Assembly (NCBI GenBank): GCA_018711265.1 | Contig: DVIM01000026.1 | Span: 13,592 to 77,591, forward strand | Direction: 5' to 3' | Source: Candidatus Spyradocola merdavium | Lineage (GTDB): Bacteria > Bacillota > Clostridia > Christensenellales > UBA1750 | Length of the DNA: 64,000 nucleotides | Shown here: positions 42,306 to 49,751 of the stretch, piece after piece | How the letters are laid out: each line of letters begins with the position of its first letter | Numbering within the stretch: position 1 is the first letter of the stretch | Notes under the pieces: generated by a model | Seen by the model: the letters and a program-made list of their open reading frames with translations, nothing else | Database searches by the model: none | What the model was told of the DNA's origin: nothing | Program-made: the position numbers and the translations under genes

Positions 42306-43007
42306 TCACATCTTTGCGCTGATCTCCCCGCGCAGGCGCTTGATGATGCGCTTTTCCAGACGGGAAATGTAGGACTGGGAAATGCCGAGCTCGTCGGCCA
42401 CCTCGCGCTGCGTCCGCTCCTTGCAGCCGTCCAGGCCAAAGCGCATCTGCATGATCTTCTGCTCGCGCGCCGTCAGGCGGGAGATGGCCTCGCGCAGCAG
42501 GGCGCGGTCCGTCTCCCGCTCGAGCTCCCGGCCCACAAGGTCCGGGTCCGTGCCCATCACGTCCGAGAGCAGCAGCTCGTTTCCGTCCCAGTCCACGTTG
42601 AGCGGTTCGTCCAGCGAGACCTCCATGCGCGTGCGGCTGTGGCGCCTTAGGTACATCAGGATCTCGTTCTCGATGCAGCGGGAGGCGTATGTCGCCAGCT
42701 TGATCTTCTTCCCCGCGTCAAACGTGCCCACGGCCTTGATGAGCCCGATCGTCCCGATGGAGATCAGGTCCTCCACGCCCACGCCCGTGTTCTCAAACTT
42801 GCGCGCAATGTACACCACCAGCCGGAGGTTGTGCTCGATGAGCCCCTCCCGCACGCTCTCGTCCCCGTCCCGCAATGCCTGCATGACCTTCTCCTCCTCT
42901 TCCTTGGTAAAGGGCGGCGGCAGGGTCTGGCCGCCGCCGATGTAGTCCACCCGGCCGGAAAGCAGACGCAGCACCTTCCGCCACAGACGTCTCATCGCCT
43001 CTCTCAT
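42306..43007 (-). CDS. sigE: pro-sigma-E (sporulation sigma factor SigE)
   Basis: Pro-sequence [33 protein letters not shown], then sigma70 regions 2-4. The ATG overlaps the spoIIGA stop (ATGA). Confidence 0.93.
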
Positions 43008-43762
43008 CGCACACACCTCCCCGGAATCAGCGCCTGTCCCTCCTCGGACAGCGCGCCGTCGTACACCGCGATGTAGGCCTCGACCTCGCGGCCGTCCACC
43101 CGCACCGCGTCCGCCGCAAAGGCCGGCAGAATCCCGCTCCCCCCGACGGAGGTAAACGGCACCGGCCGGGGCCTTCGCCCCGCCTCCAGGCCCTGCAGCG
43201 CGCGCCGCTCCACAACGATCACCGGCAGGTTGCTCACCGGCTCCACGAGCACGTTGCCCGTGTCCACCACCGCCGGCAGGCTCACGCGCCGGCCGCCCGC
43301 GCGCACGGTCAGCAGCGCCGTCGGGCTCCCCGGCCCGCGCTCCTTCCGGCGCGAGAGCACGAGGAGCGCCGCCCCGCCCAGGACCGCCGTGACCGCGGCC
43401 GCGCCCGGGCCGTAGCCCGAGGCCCCGAGCAGGTAGAGCACCCCCGCGCCCGTCCCGCCCAGCAGCAGCGTCGCCACCCACACGAACGCAAAGACGCGCA
43501 GCGTCCGCTTCCAGCAGGAGACGCGCGGCCCCGCGCAGAGCAGCAGCGTCATCCCCGCGCAGACCGCGGTCCGCGGGAGCAGCCCGAGCAGGAACCGCCC
43601 CCAGGGCAGGTACGCGGCCACCGCATAGGCGCAGCCCAGCGCGGCCGCGGCGAGCACGCGCCCCTTGCCCGTGCGGATGCCCGCAAGGCGCGCCGCCAGG
43701 AGCAGCGTCAGCGCGTTCATGCCCAGGTTCTGCGCCACAAACCACTCGATGCTCACCGTCAT
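43004..43762 (-). CDS. spoIIGA: sigma-E processing peptidase SpoIIGA
   Basis: Five hydrophobic segments, then [12 protein letters not shown] (aspartic protease DTGN motif). The start at 43762 is chosen after the upstream terminator. Confidence 0.88.
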
Positions 43763-43869
43763 TCCCACGCCGCCCCCCTCCCGCGCTCCCGTCGGATCTC
43801 CTTCACTATACCGTTCCCGCCCCGCGCTTTTTGTTGTTCCCGCGTGCGGATGCTTGTCGTGCGGCCTCC

Positions 43870-43913
43870 AAAAAGGCGCAAAAAACCGCCCGCGCAGAAC
43901 CCTGCGCAGGCGG
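43870..43913 (-). terminator. intrinsic terminator between the BlaR1-like gene and spoIIGA
   Basis: Minus strand: CCGCCTGCGCAG-ggtt-CTGCGCGGGCGG followed by TTTTTTGCGCCTTTTT. Confidence 0.8.
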
Positions 43914-44082
43914 TCAGGCGGTCGAAAAATTGTCCTGCCGCTTTCGGGGATGTGAAAGGGGGTTGCAATCCGCAGCGGTGGTGTGTACGCCTTCAAAGGG
44001 AGCGCGCCCCTTTCGGCCGAGCGTTTGGTCCACAGGCCCATAGGCCGGCCGGAACCCCGAGCCGCCGCTGGCGGTTCGGGGT

Positions 44083-44121
44083 GAATAGGGAAGGCGGGCC
44101 GAATGCCCGCCTTCCCTATTC
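44083..44121. other. perfect 17-bp-stem palindromic hairpin with no U tract on either strand
   Basis: gaatagggaaggcgggc-cgaat-gcccgccttccctattc, 50 nt after the BlaR1-like stop. Confidence 0.7.
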
Positions 44122-44170
44122 GACGCATTGTGCGCGCGGCGTGCCGGCTTTGTCAACGCGCCGCCGGCCT

Positions 44171-46477
44171 CTATTCTCCCCGGCACGCGGGGAAGAGGTC
44201 GAGCAGCGCCTCCTGGCTTCCGTAGTCAAAGTGCCTGCCGCCGTCCGCCGTGAGGACCGCGCAGGAGTCCGACGCCACGTAGAGGACCATCTCCTGTCCA
44301 TCCTCGCGCGCGAGCGTCAGCTTCCCGCCAAAGGGGCAGGCCGAAGCGATGGTCTCCTCCGACGCGCGGAGCAGGGATTGCAGCTCCGCGAGCGCCGCCG
44401 CGTCCTCGATCGTCTGGGCGCGCATCTCGTAGGCCTCCGTTCCGTCGCCCGATACGAGGACCGGGAACTCCAGCGCCGCGCGCACAAGGCGCGTCCCCTC
44501 GAGCCAGTCGAGCGAGACGGCCAGCGGGTCCGCGCCGCGCTTCTGCGCAAAGGCCTCCCGCACCGCCTGCGCGAGCTCCGCGTCCAGAATCCAGCCTCTC
44601 CCGCCGTCCTGCGCGCGCACGCGCAGCCGGTCCGCGCAGAGCGAATACGTCGCGCGCTCCGTCACGATGCAGTCGTCCACGCCGGGAACGCTCCCCGGGG
44701 CGTCCGCCGCGACCTCCGCCGCCTCCAGCCGGGCAAGGAGCTCCGCCCACGGCGCACCCTCGAGCGGGAAGCGAAACTCGAGCCGCTCCGCGATCCCGGT
44801 GGCGCTGCGCGTCTGCTCGTCCATGAGGTACACCACGCCGTAGGGCGCGTCCAGTTCCCGGCCATACGTCATGCCCCGCGCCTCCGCCGCCCGGAGGATG
44901 GCCAGCGTCGTGGGGCTTGTCGCGTCGTGCAGGATCGGGTCCGTGGCCGTGATGAGCACGAGGAACAGGTCCTCCGCGAGCTGGTCCACGCTCTGCGCGC
45001 CCGCCAGGAGGTATTCCCGCAGGAGGATCGCCTCCCCGTCCTCCGCGCGCACGCCGTACTGCTGCAGCTGGCAGTATTCCTCCATCGTGTCCCCGGGCGA
45101 GACGGTGCCGATGCCCCAGACCATCCTCTCGACCGGCTCCGGCGCGATCTCCATGCCCGCCTTGGCCAGGGCGAGGACGTAGGTGTCGCCGTTCGCGTTC
45201 CGCCGCCCGTAGAGGTGGAAGTCCAGCGCCATCTCCGGCAGCAGATCCGCCGTCTCCTCCTGGGAGAGGGAGGAGAACGCCGGAACGCGGCCCGCGAGCG
45301 CCGTTTCGTACTCCTCCATCGCCTGGGCGACGCGCTCCGGCCGGTCGTCCGGAAGCGCGGTGGGCGTCGCGCTGTCGGCTTCCGCTCTGGGCGTCGGCGC
45401 CGGGGACGCCGCCGGGGCGCTGGGCGCCGGGGTGGGAACGGCCTGCGCGGGCGGCGCATCGCCCGGCCCCGTCATGGTCACCGCGCAGCCCGTCAGCGCG
45501 GCCAGCACCGCCACCGCCGAGAGCGCGGCCGCGAAGCGCCGCCTCCCGCGCGCGAGCCTGGCGATCCTCCGCTTCATGCTGCCGCGGCTCTGCGCCATGG
45601 CGGTTGTGGCGTTGACGAGGCCAGCTGCCGTGGGGGACGGATTCACAAAGGCCAGGAGCGTCTTTCCGTAGGCCTCGCGCGCCTCCTCCCCGAGCGCGCG
45701 GATGGCCAGGGCGTCGCAGGCGCTCTCGCAGTCCTCGCGGCTGCGCGCCGCCGCCAGCCAGACGATCGGGTTGAACCAGTGCAGCACGAGCGCGGCGCTG
45801 CGCAGCAGGCCGAAGACCGCGTCGCCCTGCCGCCTGTGGCTGAGCTCGTGCACGAGGACGTGCGTCAGGCGCTCCTCGCTCTCCAGTGCCGCGGGCGTGA
45901 GCACGATGCACGGCCGGAACACCCCCATCAGGCACGGCGAAGAGACCGCGCGCGAGCAGTAGACGCGCACGCCGCGCAGCCTGCGCGCAAGGCCGCGGCC
46001 CACGCGGCGTTCCAGCCCTTCCACGGGCTTGCGTGAGCGCCGCACCCGCGCGGCAAAGCGCAGGTTGACGTGGGCGATGCCCGCGGCCGTCCCCACCGCG
46101 CCGGTTGCCCACAGGCACGCCAGCAGCATGCCGACGTCCAGGCCCGCATCGCGCGGCAGCGCGGCCGGGGCCTCCTGCGCGGCGGCATCCTCCGCCGGCG
46201 CGGCGGTCGCCTGCGGCTGCGCCGCCTCCCAACCGGCGAGGACCAGCGGCCGGGAGGCGATCTGCGCCACGGCGCGGTCCACGCGCTGCACGGGCGCGGC
46301 GTTGCGGATGCTCACCGCGCTCGGCAGGCGCAGGGGCACGAGCAGGCAGAGCAGCACCGGCAGCCACAGCGCATAGCTCAGCCGCGGGGGCAGGCGGCGG
46401 CCGAGCAGGGCGCGCAGCAGGAGCACCAGCAGCGCCATCAGGGAGCCCGTGAGCGTCAGGGTCCAAATCGCTTCCAT
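44171..46477 (-). CDS. BlaR1/MecR1-family M56 peptidase signal transducer with a non-PBP extracellular C-terminal domain
   Basis: N-terminal TM segments, HELSHRRQGD (HExxH), a second TM/lipobox-like segment AVLAALTGCAV, then ~430 aa unassigned. GGGGAGGG RBS upstream of ATG 46477, 2 nt after the blaI-like stop codon. Confidence 0.85.
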   Translation of the reverse strand: MEAIWTLTLTGSLMALLVLLLRALLGRRLPPRLSYALWLPVLLCLLVPLRLPSAVSIRNAAPVQRVDRAVAQIASRPLVLAGWEAAQPQATAAPAEDAAAQEAPAALPRDAGLDVGMLLACLWATGAVGTAAGIAHVNLRFAARVRRSRKPVEGLERRVGRGLARRLRGVRVYCSRAVSSPCLMGVFRPCIVLTPAALESEERLTHVLVHELSHRRQGDAVFGLLRSAALVLHWFNPIVWLAAARSREDCESACDALAIRALGEEAREAYGKTLLAFVNPSPTAAGLVNATTAMAQSRGSMKRRIARLARGRRRFAAALSAVAVLAALTGCAVTMTGPGDAPPAQAVPTPAPSAPAASPAPTPRAEADSATPTALPDDRPERVAQAMEEYETALAGRVPAFSSLSQEETADLLPEMALDFHLYGRRNANGDTYVLALAKAGMEIAPEPVERMVWGIGTVSPGDTMEEYCQLQQYGVRAEDGEAILLREYLLAGAQSVDQLAEDLFLVLITATDPILHDATSPTTLAILRAAEARGMTYGRELDAPYGVVYLMDEQTRSATGIAERLEFRFPLEGAPWAELLARLEAAEVAADAPGSVPGVDDCIVTERATYSLCADRLRVRAQDGGRGWILDAELAQAVREAFAQKRGADPLAVSLDWLEGTRLVRAALEFPVLVSGDGTEAYEMRAQTIEDAAALAELQSLLRASEETIASACPFGGKLTLAREDGQEMVLYVASDSCAVLTADGGRHFDYGSQEALLDLFPACRGE

Positions 46478-46481
46478 CCGC

Positions 46482-46865
46482 TCACCCTCCCCGCTTCCTG
46501 TGGTTCTCCAGCTCCCGCACGAGGTCGTCGATCTCCTCCGGCGTGAGCGTCTCCTGCTCCACGAGCGAGTGGATGAGCAGCGCGCTCCTGCCGCCAAAGA
46601 CCTTGCGCAGCACGGACTGCGTCTCCTGGCGCACGGCCTCCTCGCGGGGCAGGCGCGCGCGGTACTGCATGGGGCTCGTCCCCGCGACGACCTCCGCGCT
46701 GCCCTTCCGGCACATGCGCTTGAGCAGGGAGATCACGGTGTGCTTGCTCCACCCGGTTTCCTCCGCGAGCGCGCGCGTGATCTCCGGCATGGTCCAGGTT
46801 CCCCCTTGCCAGAGCAGCTCCATGATCTTCCACTCGCTGTCGGTGACGGTCTTCCTCTCCTCCAC
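46482..46865 (-). CDS. BlaI/MecI/CopY family transcriptional repressor
   Basis: (M)EERKTVTDSEWKIMELLWQGGTWTMPEITRALAEETGWSKHTVISLLKRM is the family winged helix. GTG 46865 with an AAAGGGGGA RBS. Confidence 0.85.
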   Translation of the reverse strand: MEERKTVTDSEWKIMELLWQGGTWTMPEITRALAEETGWSKHTVISLLKRMCRKGSAEVVAGTSPMQYRARLPREEAVRQETQSVLRKVFGGRSALLIHSLVEQETLTPEEIDDLVRELENHRKRGG

Positions 46866-46887
46866 GGCAAAATCCCCCTTTTTATGA

Positions 46888-46932
46888 ACAACTTGTCTAC
46901 CACAGGATACCACGCGGTAACAAGCTTGTCAA
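46888..46932 (-). promoter_or_regulatory. promoter TTGACA-17 nt-TATCCT with two ACAAG..TTGT palindromes (candidate BlaI-type operators)
   Basis: ACAAGCTTGT (46920-46929) overlaps the -35 hexamer. ACAACTTGT (46888-46896) lies at about +1. Confidence 0.55.
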
Positions 46933-46935
46933 CGT

Positions 46936-46983
46936 CAAAACGCAAAACTGCCCGCTCCGCGAATTTCGCCGCGGAGCGGGCAG
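46936..46983 (-). terminator. intrinsic terminator of ftsZ
   Basis: Minus strand: CTGCCCGCTCCGCG-gcgaaatt-CGCGGAGCGGGCAG followed by TTTTGCGTTTTG. Confidence 0.85.
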
Positions 46984-49572: not shown

Positions 49573-49751
49573 GCTCTTCACCTGTGTACTACCTCCCAAC
49601 CCGTGCAGGATTCTTGTCTGCACAACTTACCCATTCTATTTCTTATTATACTTCAAACTTTCCGCCTTGAAAAGGTCTGCTTTCTCTCCCGCAGGTAAAA
49701 TCCCCTGACATTTTCTGACTCTTTACAAGTTGGAAACATATGGAAGCGCGC

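What the first reader, a model, noticed from the sequence alone, without database searches (positions are those of the whole stretch)
44171..46932. Terminator-insulated BlaI / M56-peptidase module splits ftsA-ftsZ from spoIIGA-sigE-sigG
In endospore formers, ftsA-ftsZ is normally followed directly by spoIIGA-sigE-sigG (B. subtilis order).

Here a two-gene unit sits between them: a BlaI/MecI/CopY-type repressor and a 768-aa BlaR1-family M56 peptidase with HELSH. The unit has its own TTGACA/TATCCT promoter. The ftsZ terminator lies upstream. Downstream are a 17-bp palindrome and a canonical terminator.

The ~430-aa extracytoplasmic C-terminal domain of the peptidase shows no obvious SxxK / KTG penicillin-sensor triad, and I cannot assign it. 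The signal it senses is therefore unknown.

Its base composition looks like that of the host, so this is not an obvious recent insertion.
Basis: partly seen in the sequence, partly recalled or inferred. Interest (0 to 1): 0.55.

Follow-up and report, generated by a model that had tools for sequence, protein, structure and literature searches.

The report
BlaI/M56 sensor pair beside spoIIGA
This is a self-repressing repressor and membrane-protease signalling pair of the well-known BlaI/BlaR1 kind. Its outward-facing sensor is not a penicillin sensor but an undescribed, fast-evolving domain, and a group of gut Christensenellales has inherited the pair next to the sporulation gene spoIIGA.

Summary
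On the minus strand, between ftsZ and spoIIGA, lie a 128-aa BlaI/MecI-type repressor (46868-46482) and a 768-aa M56 peptidase (46477-44171; HELSH at residue 210). They have their own sigma-70-type promoter and strong terminators on both sides.

The promoter carries two operator dyads, TTGACAA-N1-2-TTGTTAA. Eight diverged orthologous loci keep both dyads. Nowhere else in the 64 kb is there a convincing copy. This indicates autorepression.

The roughly 390-aa outer domain has no SxxK, SxN or KTG motif. It matches nothing in Pfam, NCBIfam or the PDB, by sequence or by fold. It has only 69 relatives among 1.84 billion cluster representatives. Its last ~130 residues form a Cys-pair module that also occurs in uncharacterised lipoproteins.

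The pair is not a one-off insertion. Every ortholog with readable flanks sits directly upstream of spoIIGA, even where ftsZ is no longer adjacent. More distant relatives lie elsewhere.

The literature (PMC13492132) already shows that about 94% of BlaR-like proteins lack a beta-lactam domain. I therefore call this a new variant of a known kind.

Two extras are worth noting: the fourth transmembrane helix (TM4) is a conserved lipoprotein-signal-peptide look-alike, and the sensor domain shows raised dN/dS within the species. Interest is modest.

The parts
46948..46983 (-). Intrinsic terminator of ftsZ. It forms the upstream boundary of the unit.
   Evidence: 15-bp stem plus T-run. -33.3 kcal/mol, z = -5.75.
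46904..46932 (-). Sigma-70-type promoter: TTGACA, 17 nt, TATCCT, with an extended -10 TG.
   Evidence: 10 of 12 consensus matches. The same layout is conserved in 8 orthologous loci.
46917..46932 (-). Operator 1, the dyad TTGACAAGCTTGTTAC, overlapping the -35 hexamer.
   Evidence: Conserved as TTGACAAGnTTGTTAA in most of L002, L003, L004, L006, L019, L021, L022 and L016 while the flanking DNA diverges. The core GACAANNTTGT is unique in the window.
46885..46899 (-). Operator 2, the dyad TAGACAAGTTGTTCA, between the -10 hexamer and the ribosome-binding site.
   Evidence: Conserved as TAGACAAnTTGTTAA in the orthologs. The core GACAANTTGT is unique in the window.
46482..46868 (-). BlaI/MecI/CopY-family winged-helix repressor, 128 aa, with a GTG start.
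   Evidence: PF03965, 1e-25. Aligns end to end with MecI 1okr/1sd6 and BlaI 1sd4. No C-terminal Cys motif, and scores below the CopY and BlaI equivalog cut-offs.
44171..46477 (-). M56 (BlaR1-family) membrane zinc metalloprotease with an orphan sensor domain, 768 aa. Its ATG lies 4 nt after the repressor's stop codon.
   Evidence: PF05569, 6.6e-53, residues 4-307. HELSH aligns with HEYAH of S. aureus BlaR1 8exs, and a downstream E..CD motif is present. Four hydrophobic segments.
45485..45553 (-). Fourth transmembrane helix (TM4; residues 309-331). It looks like a lipoprotein signal peptide: RGRRR, a hydrophobic stretch, then the lipobox LTGC (C331).
   Evidence: A lipobox sits at this position in 16 of 16 M56 proteins that carry the full C-domain, and in 0 of 10 M56 proteins with other C-termini. 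Stand-alone homologs are lipoproteins.
45350..45460 (-). Ala/Pro-rich tether (residues 340-376).
   Evidence: Seen directly in the sequence. GC is 0.84. 3 of 40 residues differ within the species.
44174..45349 (-). Extracytoplasmic sensor domain of an undescribed family (residues 377-768).
   Evidence: No hit in Pfam, NCBIfam, PHROGs or PDB sequences. 69 relatives among 1.84e9 representatives. AlphaFold2 model pLDDT 88.4, with no Foldseek hit below E = 0.01 in PDB or BFVD. Within-species dN/dS 0.52.
44174..44587 (-). C-terminal Cys-pair module (residues 631-768). Motif: GCPF..L.LTR.DG...A.DSC...G...YG...L..IF.
   Evidence: C714, C739 and F762 are invariant in 66 sequences. Also found at the C-terminus of secreted proteins and lipoproteins. 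AlphaFold2 pLDDT 94.5, pTM 0.85. Best PDB match E = 0.04, TM about 0.2.
44083..44121 (-). Perfect 17-bp-stem hairpin in the 3' untranslated region, with no T-run. It belongs to a roughly 250-nt stretch that is absent from the closest other species.
   Evidence: -36.2 kcal/mol, z = -7.0. Single copy in the window. The stretch is present in the conspecific L016 (same ~410-nt spacing) but absent from L001.
43878..43915 (-). Intrinsic terminator that closes the unit, ahead of the spoIIGA promoter.
   Evidence: 14-bp stem plus T-run, -31.9 kcal/mol, z = -3.86. A terminator lies at the equivalent place in L001, L003, L004 and L006.
43004..43762 (-). spoIIGA, the constant downstream neighbour. It has its own conserved promoter (-10 TATAGT at 43805-43810, with CGACA boxes upstream). 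It is context, not part of the unit.
   Evidence: PF03419, 2e-36. The conserved upstream block appears in all orthologs.

Best explanation
This is a free-standing, autorepressed BlaI/BlaR1-type signalling operon.

The repressor dimer is inferred to bind two dyad operators. One covers the -35 hexamer and one lies just downstream of the -10 hexamer. Together they would keep blaI-M56 transcription low.

The M56 protein is a four-helix membrane zinc protease. Its roughly 390-aa C-terminal domain faces outward. [quoted passage not shown] It belongs to a rare, undescribed family that probably contains disulfide bonds.

By analogy with BlaR1 and MecR1, an unknown envelope or external cue acting on this domain would switch on the cytoplasmic protease. 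The protease would inactivate the repressor. That would derepress the operon itself and whatever unlinked genes carry the same operator.

The unit is transcriptionally separate from ftsAZ and from spoIIGA-sigE-sigG. Its position directly upstream of spoIIGA is an old arrangement inherited vertically within one Christensenellales clade (Candidatus Spyradocola and relatives).

Shown here: gene identities, catalytic motifs, promoter, conserved operators, terminators, absence of beta-lactam motifs, rarity of the domain, and synteny. Inferred: membrane topology, the proteolytic relay, and the existence of an inducing cue. Unknown: the nature of the cue and the regulon.
For: - Domain hits are far above the curated cut-offs for both proteins.
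- HELSH and the downstream E..CD motif align with S. aureus BlaR1. The repressor aligns along its full length with MecI and BlaI.
- The two genes are 4 nt apart and overlap in the orthologs.
- Both operators are conserved in position and sequence across eight loci whose M56 N-terminal halves are only 44-54% identical. They are unique in the window.
- Paralogous pairs have their own double dyads, the standard BlaI-family layout.
- Strong terminators lie on both sides, and one is present at the equivalent downstream site in the orthologs.
- There is no SxxK, SxN or KTG. There is no PF00905 hit, and the score is below the blaR1 equivalog cut-off.
- GC3 is host-like.
- Synteny holds in 12 loci.
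- Published work shows that non-beta-lactam BlaIR pairs act as repressor/protease regulators and are the majority of the family (PMC13492132).
Against: - No experiment links this protease to this repressor.
- The S. aureus scissile pair N101|F102 is H|S here and varies among the orthologs. Cleavage at that site therefore cannot be assumed.
- No second operator-bearing promoter was found in the window or in 10-20 kb of any orthologous locus. The regulon could be only the operon itself.
- Only hydropathy supports the topology.
Confidence: 0.8

Rival explanations
1. The pair is functionally tied to sporulation. It senses a septal or forespore cue, or it tunes expression of spoIIGA-sigE-sigG. Selection for co-location or occasional read-through would then keep it next to spoIIGA.
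For: Every ortholog of this M56 type with readable flanks lies directly upstream of spoIIGA. This includes L003, L006, L019 and L020, where the upstream neighbours are PlsY and MGDG synthase rather than ftsZ. Insertions have occurred on either side without separating them by more than one gene: an SH3_3 gene in L021 and L022 and a GNAT gene in L002.
Against: A strong terminator and an independent, conserved spoIIGA promoter lie between them in all loci. No operator copy lies in front of spoIIGA. The pair's own promoter is a plain vegetative type. L007, with 80% SpoIIGA identity, has sortase, LPXTG and amidase genes upstream of spoIIGA instead. More distant pairs with the same sensor domain sit next to rpoB or NAD synthase. 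Shared ancestry alone explains the linkage.
Confidence: 0.1
2. [quoted passage not shown]
For: The family names of both proteins.
Against: There is no SxxK, SxN or KTG anywhere in the protein. There is no transpeptidase domain hit. It scores 103.8 bits against the 400-bit blaR1 equivalog cut-off, and the match covers only the protease half. The predicted fold has no PBP or class D beta-lactamase match. No beta-lactamase gene is adjacent in any ortholog.
Confidence: 0.02
3. It is a recently acquired mobile or horizontally transferred cassette that landed in the ftsZ-spoIIGA spacer.
For: The junction does accept insertions. A low-GC GNAT gene sits in L002, an SH3_3 gene in L021 and L022, and bpr in B. 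subtilis. Distant Clostridia lack anything there.
Against: GC3 matches the host. The pair is present at the same place across a clade whose SpoIIGA proteins are only 65-91% identical, and the pair has diverged in step with it (BlaI 65-74%, M56 N-terminal half 44-54%, C-domain 27-70%). There are no integrase, transposase or repeat boundaries.
Confidence: 0.03
4. It is a CopY-type copper-responsive repressor that happens to be paired with a protease.
For: The best NCBIfam hit of the repressor is TIGR02698 CopY_TcrY at 73 bits. The operators resemble the TACAnnTGTA cop box in outline.
Against: The score is below the 121.95-bit cut-off. The C-terminus ...ELENHRKRGG has no CxCxxxxCxC metal site. 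No copper ATPase or chaperone gene is nearby. The operator half-site is GACAA, not TACA.
Confidence: 0.03

Closest known systems
CenIR of Clostridioides difficile and the other 'atypical' BlaIR pairs (PMC13492132)
   Same: A BlaI-family repressor gene sits immediately upstream of an M56 membrane protease. The C-terminal extracellular part is not a transpeptidase domain and matches no known domain. The system is chromosomal and not linked to a beta-lactamase. The inducing signal is unknown.
   Different: The CenR tail is about 125 aa and mostly predicted to be disordered. Here the tail is a confidently folded ~390-aa multi-subdomain ectodomain with conserved cysteines, preceded by a lipobox. 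No homology between the two tails was seen. The CenIR regulon is known; this one is not. Autoregulation could not be assessed for CenIR. Here it is strongly implied by two conserved operators.
BlaR1/BlaI and MecR1/MecI of Staphylococcus aureus and Bacillus licheniformis (structures 8exp-8ext, 1okr, 1sd4)
   Same: M56 gluzincin core with HExxH. A four-helix membrane topology is inferred. The repressor is a winged-helix dimer, and two dyad operators overlap the promoter. The relay mechanism is probably the same.
   Different: There is no class D beta-lactamase-like sensor, no acylation motifs and no regulated resistance gene nearby. The scissile N|F pair is not conserved. The gene order is repressor first. 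The operator half-site is GACAA rather than TACA.
Mycobacterial BlaI/BlaR (Rv1846c/Rv1845c). I did not examine this system here; PMC13492132 cites it as a published non-canonical example.
   Same: A BlaR homolog without a beta-lactam-binding domain, controlling non-resistance genes.
   Different: The mycobacterial protease has essentially no ectodomain. Here the ectodomain makes up half of the protein.

Membership tests
Peptidase M56 (BlaR1-family membrane metalloproteases) | PF05569 match above the gathering score | tested here: met
   180.2 bits against a cut-off of 31; residues 4-307 cover profile positions 3-295 of 296.
Peptidase M56 (BlaR1-family membrane metalloproteases) | Zinc site: HExxH plus a downstream glutamate (gluzincin) | tested here: met
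   HELSH 210-214 aligns with HEYAH of S. aureus BlaR1. The E251..C254-D255 motif is invariant in 13 family members.
Peptidase M56 (BlaR1-family membrane metalloproteases) | Polytopic membrane topology with the protease loop inside and the C-terminal domain outside | tested here: inconclusive
   Hydropathy gives four segments: about 1-28, 29-59, 115-136 and 314-338. Orientation is inferred from BlaR1, from the conserved cysteine pairs and from the lipoprotein homologs. No topology predictor or experiment was available.
BlaI/BlaR1-type two-gene regulatory system | Adjacent cognate PF03965 repressor gene | tested here: met
   90.8 bits against a cut-off of 22.6. The repressor's stop codon lies 4 nt before the M56 start codon.
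BlaI/BlaR1-type two-gene regulatory system | Dyad operators overlapping the regulated promoter | tested here: met
   Two dyads, at the -35 hexamer and downstream of the -10 hexamer, conserved in eight orthologs. Binding itself was not tested.
BlaI/BlaR1-type two-gene regulatory system | Signal-dependent proteolysis of the repressor by the M56 protein | not testable with these tools
   Needs biochemistry. The N|F site of BlaI and MecI is H|S here.
Bona fide beta-lactam sensor BlaR1/MecR1 (NCBIfam NF000326 / NF033109) | C-terminal penicillin-binding (transpeptidase / class D-like) domain with SxxK, SxN and KTG | tested here: not met
   The motifs are absent. There is no PF00905 hit. It scores 103.8 bits against a cut-off of 400, over the N-terminal half only. 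No structural match was found.
CopY/TcrY copper repressors (TIGR02698) | Score above the equivalog cut-off and a C-terminal CxCx4CxC metal site | tested here: not met
   73 bits against a cut-off of 121.95. The C-terminal 40 residues contain no cysteine.
Any described extracytoplasmic sensor domain family (Pfam, NCBIfam, PHROGs, PDB) | Significant sequence or fold match of residues 377-768 | tested here: not met
   No family at E <= 5 is shared by more than one of 12 members. No PDB sequence match at E <= 10, even with a profile. The best Foldseek E-values are 0.012 (PDB, whole domain), 0.039 (PDB, module) and 0.011 (BFVD), with TM <= 0.22. The AlphaFold DB was not available.
Bacterial lipoproteins (type II signal peptide) | Basic n-region, hydrophobic h-region and lipobox [LVI][ASTVI][GAS]C | tested here: met
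   RGRRR-FAAALSAVAVLAA-LTGC331. Conserved in 16 of 16 relatives that carry the domain. The motif is internal, not N-terminal, and processing by Lgt and LspA was not tested.

The most novel reading that the evidence does not exclude
The M56 protein is a fusion of a BlaR-type protease with a complete prolipoprotein, and the lipobox is still used. Lgt lipidates C331 and signal peptidase II cuts TM4. The fast-evolving ectodomain then becomes a separate, lipid-anchored lipoprotein that signals to the protease core in trans. A weaker version is that it stays uncut but is lipid-anchored.

That would be a previously undescribed two-piece architecture for BlaR-type sensors, made from one polypeptide. 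It would also define a new extracytoplasmic ligand-binding fold shared with orphan clostridial lipoproteins.
Probability: 0.15. Interest if true: 0.6.

Novelty: new variant of a known kind. Interest (0 to 1): 0.33.

Why it matters
BlaIR-like pairs are now recognised as a large class of envelope signalling systems that remains mostly uncharacterised. For almost all of them the signal is unknown.

This locus offers a cleanly delimited example. It has a confidently modelled, cysteine-stabilised sensor domain of a new family. It has well-defined operators that would allow the regulon to be read from any complete genome of the clade. It also has a conserved lipobox that suggests a testable processing step.

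Its fixed position next to the sigma-E activation operon in a poorly studied gut lineage whose genomes carry sporulation genes gives a concrete, inexpensive hypothesis to test. The evidence currently favours simple inheritance over a functional link.

Tried and rejected
- **Rfam.** A scan of 40-50 kb at E <= 1 gave nothing credible in the long M56-spoIIGA spacer.
- **PHROGs and PADLOC.** No match to the sensor domain or to the whole protease.
- **Word-indexed homolog searches with the C-domain or its profile.** These returned only near-identical sequences. The exhaustive HMMER search was needed.
- **Metagenome scan.** Two alignments were too diverse to seed it. A tighter alignment found only conspecific loci.
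- **Internal duplication of the ectodomain.** hhalign of the N-terminal part against the C-terminal module gave probability 1.3%, so I rejected this.
- **A third operator-like site upstream of ftsA (49722-49736, 3 mismatches).** About 0.5 such matches are expected by chance. The orthologs keep the block but not the TTGT half-site, so I rejected it as a repressor target.
- **Internal translation start at the conserved M294, which would make a separate lipoprotein.** No Shine-Dalgarno sequence precedes M294 or M300.
- **Genomic context of stand-alone lipoprotein homologs (P0011, P0012, P0013, P0027).** No M56 or BlaI neighbours and no consistent partner. Two contexts include Liv-type ABC transporter genes, which is too few to interpret (compare).
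- **Source annotations.** Homologs are named only 'hypothetical' or 'uncharacterised'.
- **Small ORFs in the 3' spacer.** None has coding support.
Full report
**What is there**

All genes in 39-52 kb lie on the minus strand in this order: murA, ftsQ, ftsA (49623-48400), ftsZ (48342-46996), a BlaI-like gene, an M56 peptidase gene, spoIIGA (43762-43004), sigE, sigG, ymxH, nrdR, phoP/phoR.

- The repressor is 128 aa with a GTG start at 46868. It matches PF03965 at 90.8 bits against a cut-off of 22.6. It aligns over its whole length with MecI and BlaI structures.
- The peptidase is 768 aa, with its ATG at 46477, 4 nt after the repressor's stop codon. It matches PF05569 at 180 bits over residues 4-307.
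- Its HELSH (210-214) aligns with HEYAH of S. aureus BlaR1 8exs. H210, E211, H214, E251, C254 and D255 are invariant in 13 family members.
- Hydropathy gives four membrane segments, the last at 314-338. An Ala/Pro-rich tether (340-376) and a 392-aa C-terminal domain follow.

**Transcription signals**

- A strong ftsZ terminator lies at 46983-46948.
- It is followed by TTGACA-17-TGgTATCCT at 46932-46904.
- Downstream of the peptidase stop codon there is a perfect 17-bp hairpin without a T-run (44121-44083, -36 kcal/mol).
- About 170 nt further on there is a 14-bp-stem terminator with a T-run (43915-43878, -32 kcal/mol).
- Then comes the spoIIGA promoter region.
- The promoter and terminator scan found four promoter-like sites where 0.1 were expected.

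GC3 of both genes (0.93-0.95) is that of the host.

**Operators**

I aligned the region upstream of the repressor gene from eight orthologous loci. The result is a fixed layout:
- a dyad TTGACAAGnTTGTTAA over the -35 hexamer;
- an extended -10 hexamer;
- a second dyad TAGACAAnTTGTTAA just before the ribosome-binding site.

The rest of the spacer is not conserved. In the window the two cores are unique. A search allowing three mismatches adds only one site, upstream of ftsA. Its TTGT half is not kept in the orthologs, so I discount it. In 10-20 kb of each orthologous locus, the only other match within two mismatches is a 2-mismatch site beyond sigG in L002.

This is the classic BlaI-family double-operator arrangement and argues for autorepression. 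Any further targets must lie outside the sequence available.

**The sensor domain**

- The protein has no SxxK, K[TS]G or [SY]xN.
- Residues 337-768 and 377-768 match nothing in Pfam, NCBIfam, PHROGs or PDB sequences. This holds even with a 12-sequence profile and at E-values of 5-10.
- An exhaustive HMMER search of 1.84 billion cluster representatives found only 69 proteins at E <= 1e-3.
- About a dozen of these align over the whole domain. Most of those are M56 proteases. P0012 and P0013 are stand-alone lipoproteins, and P0019 is an N-terminally incomplete stand-alone protein.
- The others share only the last ~130 residues. This module has C714, C739 and F762 invariant and P715 and D737 nearly so.
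- The module sits at the C-terminus of proteins that mostly begin with signal peptides or lipoboxes.
- Pfam recognises nothing in any of the 66 members except M56 in 18 of them. Source annotations say only 'hypothetical'.
- AlphaFold2 models are confident: whole domain pLDDT 88.4, pTM 0.74; module pLDDT 94.5, pTM 0.85.
- Foldseek finds no match below E = 0.01 in the PDB or BFVD, with TM-scores of 0.1-0.2. The top module hits (LolB, GerS, MucB-like half-barrels) are not significant. I treat them only as a hint.
- A second cysteine pair covaries. Six of the seven sequences with Y.LC.D (C614) also have FPxC (C765), and none of the five sequences lacking C614 has C765. This fits an extracytoplasmic, disulfide-stabilised domain.

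**Synteny**

I anchored a genome scan on SpoIIGA, scanned metagenomes with the C-domain and looked up individual orthologs.

- *Orthologs next to spoIIGA.* The pair lies directly upstream of spoIIGA in the window and in L001, L002, L003, L004, L006, L016, L017 and L019-L022. Across these loci SpoIIGA is 65-100% identical, BlaI 65-99%, the M56 N-terminal half 44-99% and the C-domain 27-96%.
- *Where ftsZ is.* ftsZ lies upstream in the window and in L002, L004, L016, L021 and L022. It is absent upstream in L003, L006, L019 and L020, where PlsY and an MGDG-synthase gene sit upstream of the pair in L019/L020.
- *Other insertions.* An SH3_3 gene sits between ftsZ and blaI in L021 and L022. A low-GC GNAT gene sits between the protease and spoIIGA in L002.
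- *A relative without the pair.* L007, a close relative by SpoIIGA, has amidase, LPXTG-protein and sortase genes upstream of spoIIGA instead.
- *Distant spore-formers.* In six distant loci, including Clostridium tetani, ftsZ is followed directly by spoIIGA.
- *B. subtilis.* The bpr gene lies in that gap (PMC3762067).
- *Distant pairs with the same sensor.* P0009 and P0015 lie next to rpoB or NAD synthase.
- *Paralogs with other sensor domains.* P0076 and P0078 also lie elsewhere.

The linkage to spoIIGA is therefore specific to this clade and old. It is not a property of the domain family. Every ortholog also has a terminator and the same conserved spoIIGA promoter block between the pair and spoIIGA.

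**How it most likely works**

The best-supported reading is a self-contained BlaIR-type relay. The repressor sits on the two dyads. A cue received by the ectodomain activates the cytoplasmic zinc protease. The repressor is inactivated, and the operon plus any unlinked operator-bearing genes are derepressed.

The genes, motifs, operators and insulation are shown here. The relay is inferred from BlaR1/MecR1 and from CenIR (PMC13492132). The scissile N|F pair of BlaI and MecI is H|S here and varies among the orthologs. The cleavage site therefore cannot be transferred. The signal is unknown.

A functional tie to sporulation is possible, but the terminators, the lack of operators at spoIIGA, the vegetative-type promoter, L007 and the distant relatives all weigh against it.

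**Two further observations**

1. *TM4 looks like a complete lipoprotein signal peptide.* It reads RGRRR, FAAALSAVAVLAA, then the lipobox LTGC331, followed by a Pro/Ala tether. All 16 M56 proteins that carry the full domain keep a lipobox there, in varied spellings (LTGC, LSGC, LAGC, LSAC, LLAC, LCAC). None of 10 M56 proteins with other C-termini has one. Stand-alone homologs are lipoproteins. This points to an ancestral fusion of a protease gene with a lipoprotein gene. It also raises the untested possibility that the ectodomain is lipidated or even cleaved off.
2. *The ectodomain evolves fast.* Against a conspecific contig (L016), the ectodomain has 19 amino-acid changes in 392 residues and dN/dS of 0.52. 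The flanking genes and the protease half have 0-2 changes each and dN/dS of 0.00-0.16, at similar dS. Across three conspecific sequences, almost all variable sites lie in the predicted outside loop, the tether and the ectodomain. This rests on very few sequences. It shows relaxed or diversifying selection on the exposed part, but it does not prove positive selection.

**Comparison with what is known, and verdict**

The locus passes the membership tests for the M56 family and for the BlaI/BlaR1-type system architecture. It fails those for a true beta-lactam sensor and for CopY.

Kurtz et al. 2026 (PMC13492132) reported that about 94% of roughly 15,000 M56 proteins lack a transpeptidase domain. 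The commonest architecture is 'M56 plus an unassignable C-terminus', and 96% have a BlaI gene within five genes. The headline feature of the finding is therefore ordinary for the family.

What is new is the particular sensor domain, which is a rare, foldable, cysteine-bearing family without any database model. The conserved internal lipobox and the clade-wide position beside spoIIGA are also new.

I classify it as a new variant of a known kind, of modest interest.

Noticed in passing
window 45485-45553 (residues 309-331 of the M56 protein): TM4 is a full lipoprotein signal-peptide look-alike ending in the lipobox LTGC. The lipobox is kept in 16 of 16 M56 proteins with this sensor domain and in 0 of 10 with other C-termini. 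Stand-alone homologs are lipoproteins.
   Followed up: partly
window 44174-45349 compared with L016 6001-7176: Within the species, dN/dS is 0.52 for the sensor domain (19 amino-acid changes) and 0.00-0.16 for ftsA, ftsZ, blaI, the protease half, spoIIGA and sigE. Variable sites are confined almost entirely to the predicted extracytoplasmic parts.
   Followed up: partly
window 43916-44170: A roughly 250-nt stretch lies between the M56 stop codon and its terminator. It contains a promoter-like TTGACA-18-CACAAT (44156-44127) and a perfect 17-bp hairpin (44121-44083). It appears to be present in the conspecific L016 (same ~410-nt spacing) but is absent from the next species, L001. No Rfam match and no credible ORF. 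Function unknown.
   Followed up: partly
window 43800-43935; L001, L002, L003, L006 upstream of spoIIGA: A conserved spoIIGA promoter block: a -10 GGTATAgTG and upstream CGACA / TTCGAC elements that resemble Spo0A boxes. This suggests Spo0A-dependent control as in Bacillus.
   Followed up: no
L007 1-3400: In a close relative (SpoIIGA 80% identical), the genes upstream of spoIIGA encode an O-antigen-ligase-like protein, an amidase, an LPXTG surface protein and a sortase, instead of the BlaI/M56 pair.
   Followed up: partly
L002 9031-9762: A low-GC GNAT acetyltransferase gene on the opposite strand is inserted between the M56 gene and spoIIGA. The junction accepts insertions.
   Followed up: no
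window 49715-49745; L002 and L004 upstream of ftsA: A conserved block GTTTCCAAnTnGTAAAGA lies about 100 nt upstream of ftsA, just after ftsQ. It is not the BlaI operator. It may be a promoter or regulator site for ftsAZ.
   Followed up: partly
L003, L006, L019, L020 (M56 proteins of about 1050 aa, e.g. P0007, P0074): In one sub-clade the M56 protein carries an extra ~200-aa segment between the tether and the shared sensor domain, plus a ~100-aa C-terminal extension. A 60-aa ORF follows the gene.
   Followed up: no
P0003 (312 aa, ENA): A predicted protein joins a PF13350 tyrosine-phosphatase-like N-terminus to residues ~409-533 of this sensor domain at 92-93% identity. It is on a 1.1-kb contig, so it is probably an assembly chimera.
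   Followed up: no
L029/L030 1-3400 and L032 2201-5645: Liv-type branched-chain amino-acid ABC transporter genes lie next to one distant BlaI/M56 pair with this sensor domain, and next to one stand-alone module lipoprotein. Two cases only, so this may be chance.
   Followed up: no
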